IMG/VR virus record: IMGVR_UViG_3300009026_000007
Span: 1 to 64,000 of that record
DNA from: a virus
Direction: 5' to 3' (one strand)
DNA length: 64,000 nt
The position numbers and the translations under genes were made by a program. Under the pieces are notes generated by a model. It was given only the letters and a program-made list of their open reading frames with translations. It made no database searches and was not told the origin of the DNA. Shown piece by piece: positions 61,525 to 64,000 of this stretch; positions within the stretch are counted from its first letter, which is position 1; the number at the start of each line of letters is the position of its first letter.

Positions 61525-61885
61525 TTATGAGAAGTCAGATAGCCTTCCCCTCTTAGACATACGAGCTTTGAGATTCGTGAGGTTATCGAAAGGTCAGAAC
61601 ACCACTGACGGAAGCCACCGGTGTAGATGTATTTATACATACTATCTGGTCTGTCGCTGACACAGCCTCTCACTTAACACATTCAATCTTGACGAAGATT
61701 GTCTAATTCCCTTAAAGGGGCTTGAAGAATTCTGACGAGAGTTTAAAGTCTTCCCTTTGTGTGACGGGGAGCAATGAATTATGGGCTGCGCAACAGCCAT
61801 TAAAAACAAGTAACGGTAAGACCTTTTCAGCAAGTCTCCCTTTGTGGGGTTTGTTACATTGTCCCTGTTGCGACATCCGGCGACT
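61525..61885 (+). ncRNA. Putative structured RNA(s)
   Basis: Many nested stems: TGAGA/TCTCA, CAGATAG/CTATCTG, CTTCC/GGAAG, GTCAG/CTGAC, CAATCTT/AAGATTG, GGCTG-CGCAA-CAGCC, GTAAC/GTTAC. Confidence 0.45.
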
Positions 61886-61905
61886 TGACTAAAGAGGTCT
61901 TATTT

Positions 61906-62472
61906 ATGAAAATTGAGCTAAAAGAGCCTTATTCTTCTGATTGGAAACTTGGTTATTTGAGAATTTCTAGTTTAGATGGAAGAAAAAGATTAGATTTATT
62001 TAATTCAAGTACAGAAAGAACGACTACAGCTTTTGCTAGATATTTAATGTCAGTTAAAATTGGAAGGTATTTGACAGAAGATGAAGAAGCTGATCACATA
62101 GATAATGATGCAACAAATGATTCAATAGAAAATCTACAAGTACTTAGTGTAGAGGAACATAAAGCTAAGACTAAAAGATTCGTTGAGGGTCGAATATTTA
62201 AAACCTGTGTTTGTAGTTATTGTGGTATAGAATTTGAAAGGGAAGTCAGACAAATTAAGTCTGATAAAACCTTGTGTTCAAGGTCTTGTAATGCAAAATA
62301 CAACAGGGAGTTTGGGTCTTGGACCGGAAAGCTCAAAAAGCACACCCAAGAAGAAGTAGATAAAATAGTGGAGCTAAGAGCTTCGGGTTTATCAGACTAT
62401 AAAATATCCGATATAATTGGTATTCATAGGTCTAAAATACAAAGACTTCGTATTGAGCTTGGTATTAAATAG
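61906..62472 (+). CDS. HNH homing endonuclease with zinc finger and HTH
   Basis: ARYLMS..IGRYL...E.ADHIDND.TND.IENLQVL....H..KT; CSYCG...CSRSC; C-terminal HTH. Confidence 0.88.
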   Translation: MKIELKEPYSSDWKLGYLRISSLDGRKRLDLFNSSTERTTTAFARYLMSVKIGRYLTEDEEADHIDNDATNDSIENLQVLSVEEHKAKTKRFVEGRIFKTCVCSYCGIEFEREVRQIKSDKTLCSRSCNAKYNREFGSWTGKLKKHTQEEVDKIVELRASGLSDYKISDIIGIHRSKIQRLRIELGIK

Positions 62473-62558
62473 TCTCTGTCCCTCACGAGGTCTTCTAAGC
62501 CTTTGACATTAAACTAGAGGATGGATGTCACGGAGTTCGATACTTCCAGAGACTACCA
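62471..62558 (+). tRNA. Non-canonical tRNA-Arg(UCU)-like RNA: 8-bp acceptor, 4-bp T-stem, no local D-arm, long variable arm, encoded CCA
   Basis: AGTCTCTG/CAGAGACT-A-CCA; GAGGT-CTTCTAA-GCCTT anticodon arm; TGACATT/GATGTCA variable stem; GGAG-TTCGATA-CTTC T-arm. Confidence 0.7.
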
Positions 62559-62608
62559 GTTTCACCCACAATCACTAAGATTAACTCTAAAAAGATTGTG
62601 GTATTCAC

Positions 62609-62746
62609 GCTGTCATTTTCCTCTCCTAAGACAGCACTTAAGATATTCTCTGTTCCTCCTCTCTCTCCTCGCAGAGAATATCTTCTGGCCTTGGATAGAT
62701 TATACTAGTACTCTCCTTCTAGTGTAATCTTCGCTAACAGGGCCAT
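62609..62746 (+). ncRNA. Triple-hairpin RNA with anti-Shine-Dalgarno (CUCUCCU) loops
   Basis: Stems 62609-62635, 62640-62684 and 62697-62730, each with a loop containing CTCTCCT. Confidence 0.6.
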
Positions 62747-62817
62747 TTCTAAATAATCTTGTTGTTCTTTAACGATAATGTCAGTGGTCTGATCAGGATT
62801 ATTTAGAAATTAATAGT

Positions 62818-63088
62818 AAGTAATATTTCTCATGTGTTTTAAAACCTAGAGCTAACTAGGAAGTTCGAATACTTATCTCCGCAAGCGGCTTCTGATGACT
62901 AAAGTAGGATTAATTACCCGAAAAGGTTGGTAGGAAGCTCTATTCATTAGAATTGAAGACAATAGCCAGAGTTAATCACTGTGCCGTACTGGAGTTGTGA
63001 AGCTAATGTAGGTTGGGGACGGTTGATTACCTAAAAGAGATAGAGTTGGAGATGAGCACCAACTAAAACACAGCAGAAATATTATTTA
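62818..63088 (+). ncRNA. Putative structured RNA of about 270 nt
   Basis: Closing stems AAGTAATATTTCT/AGAAATATTATTT and TGTGTTTTA/TAAAACACA enclose several hairpins. Confidence 0.45.
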
Positions 63089-63524: not shown

Positions 63525-64000
63525 CCTACAGAGCGAGTGAATATCGAAACTGGACCTTAGAGGTCGTTCTCTGTAAGAAATAGGTAAATACCTTTGGTTT
63601 GTGAGGAGCCACCACTAAAGTACAGAAAGCCCTAGACGTGAGTTTAGGCGAGCTACTGATACATACTTAAATGGGTAACTTTTCACGCTAAGCCCTAGGC
63701 TGAAGCCACTTTATGTGGGGGTGGTTTAGAGTTGTTTACCGACCTTATTAATTCCTTGTGTGTGCAGACGTACCCCAGCAATTTCTGCATGTTTGTTGCT
63801 GTAGGGTGAGAGCAAGGAAACCTAACTAGATCGCAAGGTCTGGTATCTCAGCTAGTTCCTGAGACCCCGGCATTCTGGCGGATGCCTGTTGTAAGACACT
63901 ACGGACAGACGTGTAGGGTTGTGAATCCCGTCATGAATCTGAGTAGGGCACTCATACTAATTTCACCTCAGAAAATGCCCACCTATTCCAAGGGTCTATA
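63525..64000 (+). ncRNA. Putative large structured RNA (may extend beyond window)
   Basis: No long ORF; GNRA-capped hairpins CCTAGAC-GTGA-GTTTAGG and CTAGATC-GCAA-GGTCTGG, plus TTCCTTG/CAAGGAA, CTCAG/CTGAG, GGCATTC/GGATGCC. Confidence 0.45.

What the first reader, a model, noticed from the sequence alone, without database searches (positions are those of the whole stretch)
62471..62558. tRNA-Arg(UCU)-like RNA with 8/4 fold, no local D-arm, and a D-stem possibly rebuilt as a pseudoknot with the variable loop
Seen: 8-bp acceptor AGTCTCTG/CAGAGACT + A + CCA; 4-bp T-stem with TTCGATA loop (8+4 = 12 bp, as in the 8/4 allo-tRNAs of Mukai et al.); a 7-nt anticodon loop CT-TCT-AA; and a 7-bp variable stem with a 13-nt loop. 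Only 8 nt (TCCCTCAC) separate the acceptor and anticodon arms, so there is no D-loop. However, CCTC (62481-62484) is complementary to GAGG (62517-62520) in the variable loop, in the context TAGAGGA that looks like a displaced D-arm 3' strand. The 5' end overlaps the HNH stop codon. Inference: a topologically rearranged tRNA or tRNA mimic that standard scanners may miss. It might decode AGA (rare in GC-rich hosts, common in this phage), or act as a decoy for anticodon nucleases or synthetases. It lacks the normal A20 ArgRS identity position, so its charging identity is open. I cannot exclude that similar RNAs are already catalogued.
Basis: partly seen in the sequence, partly recalled or inferred. 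Interest (0 to 1): 0.85.

Follow-up and report, generated by a model that had tools for sequence, protein, structure and literature searches.

The report
Rewired arginine tRNA behind HNH gene
This 88-base phage gene belongs to a widespread, unannotated family that looks like an arginine tRNA but has no D hairpin, because its D-stem is rebuilt by pairing across the anticodon arm; here it sits directly behind a mobile endonuclease gene.

Summary
A descriptor for this layout hits the 88.5-kb phage genome once and 40 shuffles never.

It is a member of a large family, not a one-off or a decayed pseudogene. A covariance model built without the window (R2) scores it 82.5 bits over its full length.

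ARAGORN of 82, and Rfam's tRNA model gives nothing here. Members lie in tRNA arrays (37 of 82). A canonical tRNA-Arg(UCU) lies nearby in only 1 of 82. Sister copies carry CCU or GUA anticodons.

In the window, an HNH gene plus this element replaces a second D-hairpin-less UCU type that fills the same slot in a close relative (L169). A soil metagenome holds the same cassette with no differences in the element.

Most likely it is a working AGA-reading tRNA-Arg with a pseudoknotted core. Charging and decoding are untested.

This scan found the family at least nine times before on other DNA. I found no paper describing it.

The parts
61906..62472 (+). HNH homing-endonuclease gene (188 aa from ATG 61906; stop TAG 62470-62472). 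Together with the element it forms a cassette.
   Evidence: It matches phrog_14913 at E = 7e-56 and Pfam HNH_3 weakly. Homologues in many phages lie beside tRNA genes. 14 of its 16 Arg codons are AGA or AGG.
62471..62558 (+). Rewired (D-hairpin-less, pseudoknotted) tRNA-Arg(UCU)-like gene, type A, with an 8/4 acceptor/T branch.
   Evidence: Model R2, built without the window, scores it 82.5 bits, E = 1.9e-22, over positions 1-88 of 88. ARAGORN and Rfam find nothing here.
62471..62478 (+). Acceptor stem 5' strand. It pairs with 62547-62554.
   Evidence: 8 of 8 Watson-Crick pairs. In the family this helix is 99.1% paired and all 8 pairs change on both sides.
62479..62486 (+). 8-nt connector that takes the place of the D arm. 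Bases 62481-62484 (CCTC) are the 5' strand of the rebuilt D-stem.
   Evidence: It pairs with GAGG at 62517-62520. The family helix is 96.3% paired and 4 of 5 pairs change on both sides. In the window the fifth pair is an A-A mismatch.
62487..62503 (+). Anticodon arm with loop CTTCTAA and anticodon TCT at 62494-62496.
   Evidence: Read. The family helix is 98.9% paired and 5 of 5 pairs change on both sides.
62504..62531 (+). Variable region. It holds a short stem (core 62505-62507 with 62527-62529), an AAA run (62511-62513), the 3' strand of the rebuilt D-stem (62517-62520) and a GGA motif (62523-62525).
   Evidence: The core pairs covary, for example pair 37-60 appears as AU 18, GC 16, UA 8. 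The outer pairs 40-57 and 41-56 never change on both sides.
62532..62546 (+). T arm: a 4-bp stem and the loop TTCGATA.
   Evidence: Read. The family helix is 98.2% paired and 3 of 4 pairs change on both sides.
62547..62558 (+). Acceptor 3' strand, discriminator A62555 and encoded CCA at 62556-62558.
   Evidence: Read. Homology with the relatives L006, L002 and L169 resumes directly after the CCA.
61780..62557 (+). Segment that differs from the close relative L169. It contains a leader, the HNH gene and the type-A element. L169 instead has 214 nt that end in a type-B element.
   Evidence: By blastn, window 61581-61779 matches L169 3251-3438 and window 62558-62753 matches L169 3653-3847. The type-B element is at L169 3569-3651.

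Best explanation
Bases 62471-62558 encode a member of a widespread phage family of tRNA-Arg(UCU) genes whose core is wired differently from the cloverleaf.

What is shown: the acceptor/T branch is 8+4 bp and the anticodon arm is ordinary. There is no D hairpin. Instead, the strand right after the acceptor stem pairs with a strand in the loop of the variable region. That helix encloses the anticodon arm and crosses a short variable stem, which makes it a pseudoknot.

What is inferred:
- This helix stacks on the anticodon stem to rebuild the anticodon limb, and a displaced GGA takes the role of the D-loop.
- The RNA is cut out by RNase P. That cut would fall inside the HNH stop codon.
- It is charged with arginine and reads AGA (and perhaps AGG) for the phage.
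- In this phage the gene came in as cargo of an HNH homing-endonuclease cassette. The cassette replaced a different D-hairpin-less UCU gene (type B) that closely related phages carry in exactly this slot.
For: - Family membership is independent of the window: R2 gives 82.5 bits at full length.
- In 82 members (56 distinct), 94.1% of cells pair against 65.3% in shuffles (0 of 500 shuffles reach it). The covariation score is 0.761 against 0.209, and sliding the partners drops pairing to 38-52%.
- The long-range helix is 96.3% paired, with pair types CG/UA/AU/GC at three positions.
- tRNA-like behaviour: 37 of 82 members have a same-strand ARAGORN tRNA within 300 nt, often 2-12 nt away.
- A canonical Arg(UCU) lies within 2.5 kb of only 1 of 82.
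- The same scaffold carries CCU (L099) and GUA (L109, L070). The GUA copy sits in a 24-tRNA array that has no Tyr gene.
- The window genome has no other Arg tRNA, only tRNA-Met.
- AGA and AGG make up 23.4% and 16.5% of Arg codons in 50 long ORFs, and 14 of 16 in the HNH gene.
- Slot swap: relative L169 carries a type-B UCU element that ends at the same junction.
- A soil-metagenome contig (run X2) carries HNH plus the element. It has no listed difference between 62375 and 62584, while the flanks differ by about 5-10%.
- HNH homologues sit directly beside canonical tRNAs. In phage Bas91 a tRNA-Arg(UCU) overlaps the HNH 3' end by 10 nt.
Against: - There is no evidence of expression, processing or aminoacylation. 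The one RNA run I laid covers only 62856-63073.
- The folding energy of the window copy alone is ordinary (z = -0.9).
- Its long-range helix has 4 of 5 pairs.
- The CTTCTAA, AAA, GGWWGG and GTTCGA motifs are invariant in most of the alignment partly by construction, because 73 loci were fetched with a pattern that requires them. The stem covariation is not affected by this.
- Aeromonas phage Aszh-1 has both a canonical Arg(UCU) and this type. So the rewired type is not always a replacement.
- From recalled knowledge, not tested here: E. coli ArgRS uses A20 and A/G73. Many members have U before the CCA.
- An earlier check inside this scan of a similar claim on other DNA reported that 'part of it fell'. 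I could not see which part.
Confidence: 0.62

Rival explanations
1. It is a tRNA mimic or decoy, not an adaptor. The RNA presents an Arg(UCU) anticodon loop and a tRNA-like acceptor/T domain to soak up or deflect a host factor. That factor could be an anticodon nuclease or another tRNA-targeting defence, a modification enzyme or a synthetase. The RNA is not used on the ribosome.
For: The core is non-canonical and there are no charging data. One phage (Aszh-1) keeps a canonical tRNA-Arg(UCU) 1.2 kb away from the rewired copy, which would make the two redundant as adaptors. The anticodon loop is the most conserved part, though that is partly by construction.
Against: A decoy for an anticodon nuclease has no evident need for a covarying 12-bp acceptor/T branch, an encoded CCA and a consensus T loop. 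The near-exclusive distribution against canonical Arg(UCU) (1 of 82 nearby) and the GUA copy filling the Tyr gap in a 24-tRNA array fit substitution better than addition.
Confidence: 0.2
2. It is a cis-acting processing or stability element of the HNH transcript. A tRNA-like fold would recruit RNase P, RNase Z or the CCA-adding enzyme. That would cut the HNH mRNA at its stop codon, separate it from the downstream hairpin RNA, or protect a 3' end. The element would have no role in decoding.
For: The 5' end lies inside the HNH stop codon. The same overlap is seen for the rewired copy in Pseudomonas phage Ty (L012 1427-1509 against CDS 1001-1453) and for the canonical tRNA in Bas91. No terminator-like site on the + strand separates the element from its neighbours.
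Against: Only 6 of 76 family members fetched without reference to HNH have an HNH of this family within the flanks read. Most lie in tRNA arrays or stand alone. A mere processing signal would not need a conserved 7-nt anticodon loop, nor anticodon variants that match codon families.
Confidence: 0.1
3. It is a decaying tRNA pseudogene, a chance fold, or a sequence conserved only as the DNA target of the endonuclease.
For: ARAGORN and Rfam reject it. With ARAGORN's threshold lowered to 80% the genome gives 48 mostly spurious calls, one of them at exactly these coordinates with a different, poor fold. No differences were listed in the element in run X2, but the neighbouring HNH gene differs by only about 1% (5 substitutions in 564 nt), so this says nothing about selection.
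Against: There are 0 descriptor hits in 40 shuffles. The element scores 82.5 bits against a model built from other genomes. Compensatory changes occur in every helix across 56 distinct sequences, which is selection on RNA pairing, not on a DNA site or on nothing.
Confidence: 0.03

Closest known systems
Canonical bacterial and phage tRNA-Arg(UCU), for example the gene overlapping the HNH homologue in Escherichia phage Bas91 (PQ850614; L013 1414-1489)
   Same: Both have the anticodon loop CUUCUAA, a 12-bp acceptor/T branch, a TTCRA-type T loop and an encoded CCA. Both sit directly behind, and overlap, an HNH gene that is 59% identical over 133 aa.
   Different: Bas91's gene is a 7/5 cloverleaf with a normal D hairpin and a 5-nt variable loop, and ARAGORN calls it. 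The window's gene is 8/4 with no D hairpin. Its D-stem strands lie on either side of the anticodon arm, and its variable region is 28 nt.
Allo-tRNAs and (8/4) tRNA-Ser / tRNA-His of bacteria and phages (Mukai et al. 2017, PMC5389517; passages read)
   Same: Both have an 8/4 split of the 12-bp acceptor/T branch, an enlarged variable region, and occurrence in phage tRNA clusters.
   Different: Per the passages read, allo-tRNAs keep a D stem-loop like that of tRNA-Sec, with a long stem and a tetraloop. This family has none and uses a pseudoknot. The term UCU does not occur in that paper's main text. Its supplementary figures were not available.
D-armless mitochondrial tRNAs of animals (e.g. human mt-tRNA-Ser(AGY); PMC9427863 and PMC12221289, seen in a search listing only)
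   Same: A short connector stands where the D arm should be, and these are nevertheless working tRNAs.
   Different: Those are shrunken molecules served by co-adapted mitochondrial factors. This family is longer than a normal tRNA (85-89 nt), rebuilds the D-stem through a long-range helix, and occurs in viruses of bacteria.
Type-B D-hairpin-less UCU elements in this phage's own relatives (L169 3569-3651, L017 2289-2371, L006 75-157, and others)
   Same: They have the same anticodon loop, an 8-nt connector containing CCC that faces GGG in a long variable region, no D hairpin, and the same genomic slot in L169.
   Different: Type B has a 7/5 branch, is about 83 nt long and has no separate variable stem. 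RNAfold pairs its connector with the variable region in a nested way. It scores only 30-42 bits with R2. Its connector and variable motifs were fixed by my search pattern, so their covariation is untested.

Membership tests
Rewired D-hairpin-less phage tRNA-Arg(UCU) family, type A (unpublished; defined here by model R2) | Full-length match to a covariance model built from other genomes only | tested here: met
   82.5 bits, E = 1.9e-22, model positions 1-88 of 88.
Rewired D-hairpin-less phage tRNA-Arg(UCU) family, type A (unpublished; defined here by model R2) | 8-bp acceptor stem plus 4-bp T stem | tested here: met
   Read. The family pair 8-81 appears as GC 44, CG 5, AU 4, UA 1, UG 1.
Rewired D-hairpin-less phage tRNA-Arg(UCU) family, type A (unpublished; defined here by model R2) | 5-bp helix between the connector and the variable loop, enclosing the anticodon arm | tested here: met
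   4 of 5 pairs form in the window (62481-62484 with 62517-62520); the fifth is A-A. The family helix is 96.3% paired.
Rewired D-hairpin-less phage tRNA-Arg(UCU) family, type A (unpublished; defined here by model R2) | Anticodon loop CUUCUAA, an AAA run, a GGA motif after the long-range strand, a GTTCGA T loop and NCCA | tested here: met
   All are present.
Canonical cloverleaf tRNA (Rfam RF00005; ARAGORN) | D stem-loop between the acceptor and anticodon stems | tested here: not met
   Only 8 nt lie there.
Canonical cloverleaf tRNA (Rfam RF00005; ARAGORN) | Score at or above the RF00005 gathering score of 29 bits, or an ARAGORN call | tested here: not met
   No tRNA match up to E = 10. ARAGORN at default finds nothing. 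ARAGORN of 82 family members.
Canonical cloverleaf tRNA (Rfam RF00005; ARAGORN) | Aminoacylation and use on the ribosome | not testable with these tools
   This needs acid-urea Northern blots or tRNA sequencing, and reporter assays.
Allo-tRNA (Mukai et al. 2017) | 8/4 or 9/3 acceptor/T branch | tested here: met
   8/4.
Allo-tRNA (Mukai et al. 2017) | tRNA-Sec-like D stem-loop (long stem, tetraloop) | tested here: not met
   There is no D hairpin. The feature is as described in passages of PMC5389517.
Viral tRNA-like structures with a pseudoknotted acceptor stem (plant-virus TLS; recalled) | The pseudoknot forms the acceptor stem at a genomic RNA 3' end | tested here: not met
   The acceptor stem here is an ordinary 8-bp helix, the pseudoknot is in the core, and this is a DNA phage.
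HNH_3 / phrog_14913 homing endonuclease (the neighbouring gene) | Profile match, and a position beside tRNA genes | tested here: met
   phrog_14913 at E = 7e-56. Pfam HNH_3 scores 22.1 bits, below its 24.8 cut-off. tRNA neighbours of homologues are shown.

The most novel reading that the evidence does not exclude
A natural elongator tRNA family that works on bacterial ribosomes without a cloverleaf. The D-stem is assembled from strands on either side of the anticodon arm and crosses a small variable stem as a pseudoknot. The same scaffold serves Arg(UCU), Arg(CCU) and a GUA (Tyr-type) anticodon. In this phage the gene is the cargo of a homing-endonuclease cassette that overwrote a second non-cloverleaf allele. 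On this reading, selfish endonucleases spread rewired tRNA genes between phages, and RNase P processing of the tRNA would clip the endonuclease mRNA inside its stop codon.
Probability: 0.5. Interest if true: 0.92.

Novelty: new variant of a known kind. Interest (0 to 1): 0.85.

Why it matters
[quoted passage not shown] If these genes are charged and decode, that rule fails for tRNAs used in bacterial cells. It would mean ArgRS, EF-Tu, RNase P, modification enzymes and the ribosome all accept a pseudoknotted core.

The family is also invisible to ARAGORN (1 of 82 called) and to Rfam's tRNA model. Phage tRNA inventories and codon-supply analyses therefore undercount AGA decoders.

The family occurs in cultured phages of Acinetobacter, Vibrio, Aeromonas and Pseudomonas, so the question can be tested directly. 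The window adds a natural allele swap (type A with HNH against type B) at one slot in near-identical phages.

Tried and rejected
- An exact 27-mer of the T arm and acceptor end found nothing in IMG/VR. blastn of the element against GenBank phages found nothing even at E = 10. Sequence similarity alone does not find relatives.
- The search for related loci with the single HNH protein found no relative. The alignment A1 did.
- MAFFT misaligned the window element with L017's element (A2). I dropped A2 and built R1 from the window element entered twice (A3).
- ARAGORN's reading at an 80% threshold ('tRNA-Stop tta' at the same coordinates) is rejected. It needs a poor stem, and it is one of 48 mostly spurious calls.
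- A normal D arm in another register: the only local option is a 3-bp stem with a 4-nt loop, which destroys the anticodon stem. Rejected by eye.
- Group I intron or other known RNA around the HNH gene: Rfam has no such hit.
- Weak ar14 matches at 62601-62734 (23.6 bits against a gathering score of 58.8) concern the neighbouring hairpin region, not this element.
- Promoter scan: a TTATCA-17-TATAAT site lies at 62389-62417, but the region has 7 promoter-like sites against 6.6 expected. This is no evidence.
- RNA evidence: the single RNA run laid (X11) has one 218-nt contig at 62856-63073 and nothing on the element. Runs X3 and X5 cover only parts. No conclusion on expression can be drawn.
- 6 of the 21 genome contigs pattern hits (L143, L144, L146, L150, L158, L159) do not reach E = 0.001 with R2 and are taken as chance pattern matches.
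- L113 was left out because it is the same contig as L022.
- The outer two pairs of the 7-bp variable stem are not supported in the family.
- I did not use the metagenome-contig scan, the structure-prediction tools or the protein atlas.
- Supplementary files of papers are closed. Supplementary figures S1-S3 of PMC5389517, which show phage 8/4 tRNAs, could bear on novelty and were not seen.
- Literature searches that returned no description of this fold: 0 or irrelevant papers; allo-tRNA papers; review PMC7609411: no occurrence of 'phage' or 'pseudoknot' in its main text.
Full report
**The observation.**
- an 8-bp Watson-Crick acceptor stem followed by A and CCA;
- a 4-bp T stem around TTCGATA;
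- a 5-bp anticodon stem around CTTCTAA;
- a 7-bp stem with a 13-nt loop;
- only 8 nt where a D arm should be;
- CCTC (62481-62484) complementary to GAGG (62517-62520);
- a 5' end inside the TAG stop (62470-62472) of an HNH gene.

ARAGORN at default settings and Rfam find nothing. A descriptor for the layout hits the genome once, at this element, and 40 shuffles never. The genome's only conventional tRNA is a tRNA-Met at 63992-64067.

**Local context.** The ORF 61906-62472 is an HNH homing endonuclease (phrog_14913, E = 7e-56). Five related phage contigs were found through the downstream 135-aa ORF.
- In L006 and L002, homology to the window resumes at 62559/62560, directly after the stop codon of a different upstream gene. 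The 88 nt are absent there.
- In L017, an HNH 63% identical to the window's sits at the same place with no such element behind it.

So HNH plus element is a lineage-specific insert.

A soil-metagenome contig (run X2, a different study from the likely source sample) covers 61847-62750 with 16 substitutions and 4 indels. None of them lies between 62375 and 62584. The cassette is therefore present elsewhere, with no differences listed in the element, while the flanks differ by roughly 5-10%. The adjacent HNH gene differs by only 5 substitutions in 564 nt. The element's identity is thus not in itself evidence of selection.

**The HNH family lives beside tRNA genes.** tblastn against GenBank phages found 58 records. 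In those I opened, a tRNA starts 0-9 nt after the HNH stop in KissB (Phe) and in Turkey5 and RaK2 (Asn). In Bas91 a canonical tRNA-Arg(UCU) overlaps the HNH 3' end by 10 nt. Most of the 28 IMG/VR loci found with the HNH alignment show tRNAs directly before or after the gene.

**The element is a member of a large family.**
- A model built from the window element alone (R1) found full-length matches beside HNH homologues in Vibrio phage 1.084.O, Acinetobacter phages KissB and AbaM_B9, Aeromonas phage Aszh-1 and an IMG/VR contig.
- A degenerate pattern drawn from these found 73 IMG/VR loci. R1 then aligned 82 full-length matches, 56 of them distinct.
- A second model built without the window (R2) scores the window element 82.5 bits, E = 1.9e-22, over all 88 positions, with a single A-A mismatch.
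- The same pattern found 21 places in bacterial genomes and MAGs. Of these, 15 are full-length R2 matches of at least 70 bits, including Vibrio injensis, Spirabiliibacterium pneumoniae and many Verrucomicrobia MAG contigs. Whether those are prophages was not examined.

**Structure.** On the 56 distinct sequences, 94.1% of cells pair against 65.3% in shuffles (0 of 500). The covariation score is 0.761 against 0.209. Sliding the partners by 1-3 columns drops pairing to 38-52%.

| Helix | Cells paired | Pairs changing on both sides |
|---|---|---|
| Acceptor | 99.1% | 8 of 8 |
| Anticodon stem | 98.9% | 5 of 5 |
| T stem | 98.2% | 3 of 4 |
| Connector / variable-loop helix | 96.3% | 4 of 5 |

In the connector/variable-loop helix, pair 13-49 appears as CG 26, UA 10, AU 8, GC 4, and pair 14-48 as AU 17, GC 15, CG 10, UA 4. 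That region was not part of R1's structure, so the alignment was not fitted to it.

This helix encloses the anticodon arm and crosses a short variable stem. The stem's inner pairs covary (pair 37-60: AU 18, GC 16, UA 8), but its outer two pairs do not. The 8th acceptor pair covaries too, which supports an 8/4 branch.

My inference is that the long-range helix stacks on the anticodon stem to remake the anticodon limb. The GGA that follows its 3' strand (62523-62525) would stand in for G18-G19-A20. Neither point has been tested.

One caveat applies. The invariance of CTTCTAA, AAA, GGWWGG and GTTCGA in most rows is imposed by the search pattern. The six rows found through HNH share these motifs without that bias.

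**Does it behave like a tRNA gene?**
- Of 82 elements, 51 have an ARAGORN tRNA within 2.5 kb, and 37 have one on the same strand within 300 nt, often 2-12 nt away.
- Only 1 (Aszh-1) has a canonical Arg(UCU) within 2.5 kb, and ARAGORN itself calls only 1 of the 82.
- Loci fetched for the UCU pattern also hold copies of the same scaffold with CCU (L099 1449-1536) and GUA (L109 7508-7596, L070 3908-3997) anticodons.
- The L070 GUA copy lies inside an array of 24 conventional tRNAs that has no Tyr gene.
- The window phage uses AGA for 23.4% and AGG for 16.5% of Arg codons in 50 long ORFs. The HNH gene uses AGA or AGG for 14 of its 16.

**HNH linkage is facultative.** Of the 76 elements found without reference to HNH, 6 have an HNH of this family in the flanks read (up to 2.5 kb, some much shorter). 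Five of these lie downstream of the element and one upstream. The window's order, HNH then element, recurs in L083 and in Pseudomonas phage Ty, where the element (L012 1427-1509, 39.7 bits) overlaps the HNH 3' end.

**A second type in the window's own relatives.** Rfam's tRNA model matched three sequences that ARAGORN had missed, just upstream of L017's HNH. One of them (L017 2289-2371) has the same anticodon loop, an 8-nt connector and a 23-nt variable region, but a 7/5 branch. RNAfold pairs its connector with the variable region (z = -2.4). A pattern for this 'type B' found 11 IMG/VR loci, mostly contigs of 84-113 kb. R2 scores them 24-42 bits.

In L169, a close relative of the window phage (85-95% identity in shared segments), the type-B element ends exactly where the window's type-A element ends, directly before the shared downstream sequence. 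Window 61780-62557 (leader, HNH and type A) corresponds to 214 nt of L169 that end in type B. The sequence that run X2's contig continues into after 62750 occurs in L169 just after that point. The population is therefore a mosaic at this locus.

Two different D-hairpin-less UCU genes filling one slot in near-identical phages argues that the slot's function is to supply tRNA-Arg(UCU). It also suggests that the endonuclease cassette overwrote the resident allele. Both points are inferences.

**Comparison with what is known.**
- Allo-tRNAs share the 8/4 branch but keep a D stem-loop like that of tRNA-Sec (passages of PMC5389517).
- The 2020 review of non-canonical tRNAs has no occurrence of 'phage' or 'pseudoknot' in its main text (PMC7609411).
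- Four further full-text searches found no description of this fold.
- A 2024 abstract states that all known bacterial tRNAs are cloverleaves (PMC11551756, from the listing).
- Rfam 15 has no family for it.

Within this scan the same family has been reported at least nine times on other DNA with the same reading. I reached the family before reading those notes. One note says that a later check of a similar claim found that 'part of it fell', and another priced the bold reading at 55 in 100.

**Verdict.** The observation and the proposed long-range pairing are confirmed. Membership in a conserved, non-cloverleaf tRNA-Arg(UCU) family is close to certain. Whether it is a working AGA decoder is the best-supported reading (about 0.6) but remains untested. 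A decoy or a processing role are the live rivals.

Noticed in passing
window 62559-62810: The hairpin region with CU-rich loops right after the element is conserved in relatives (L006 546-800 at 78%, L169 3653-3847 at 87%, partly in L002 and L005). It gives only weak matches to Rfam ar14 (23.6 bits against a gathering score of 58.8). L017 has a similar ar14-like stretch upstream of its tRNAs (1915-2040, 27.9 bits).
   Followed up: partly
L017 2082-2156 and 2165-2235: Two more tRNA-model matches (28.6 and 48.7 bits) that ARAGORN misses. The second has a UGU anticodon loop and a T loop without the TTC consensus. A free-standing D-arm-like sequence lies at about L017 2248-2270, just upstream of the type-B element.
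   Followed up: no
L169 3569-3651; L017 2289-2371; L006 75-157; L162-L172: This is a second, 7/5 'type B' family of D-hairpin-less UCU elements (about 83 nt). Its acceptor, anticodon and T stems differ between copies while still pairing. In L169 it occupies exactly the slot of the window's element. L006, L169 and L170 have an unusual T loop (ATCGTAC).
   Followed up: partly
L099 1449-1536; L109 7508-7596; L070 3908-3997: The same rewired scaffold appears with CCU and GUA anticodons. The GUA copy in L070 lies in a 24-tRNA array that lacks a Tyr gene.
   Followed up: partly
window 61906-62472: The HNH gene uses AGA or AGG for 14 of its 16 Arg codons, against 40% in the phage's long ORFs. The endonuclease would gain most from the tRNA it travels with.
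   Followed up: partly
L002 3225-3761: A different endonuclease-like ORF occupies the same slot in relative L002, preceded by the same conserved leader (window 61773-61902 matches L002 3092-3221 at 83%).
   Followed up: no
window 63992-64000 (genome 63992-64067): A conventional tRNA-Met (70.3 bits) crosses the window's end. That is why ARAGORN reports no tRNA in the window.
   Followed up: yes
window 62856-63073: A metatranscriptome run (X11, estuary) holds a 218-nt contig identical to this non-coding stretch upstream of the 135-aa ORF. DNA carry-over cannot be excluded.
   Followed up: no
window 61525-61770 and 63525-64000: These are ORF-free, apparently structured stretches flanking the locus. 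Window 61581-61779 is 85% identical to L169 3251-3438. Neither stretch matched any Rfam family.
   Followed up: no
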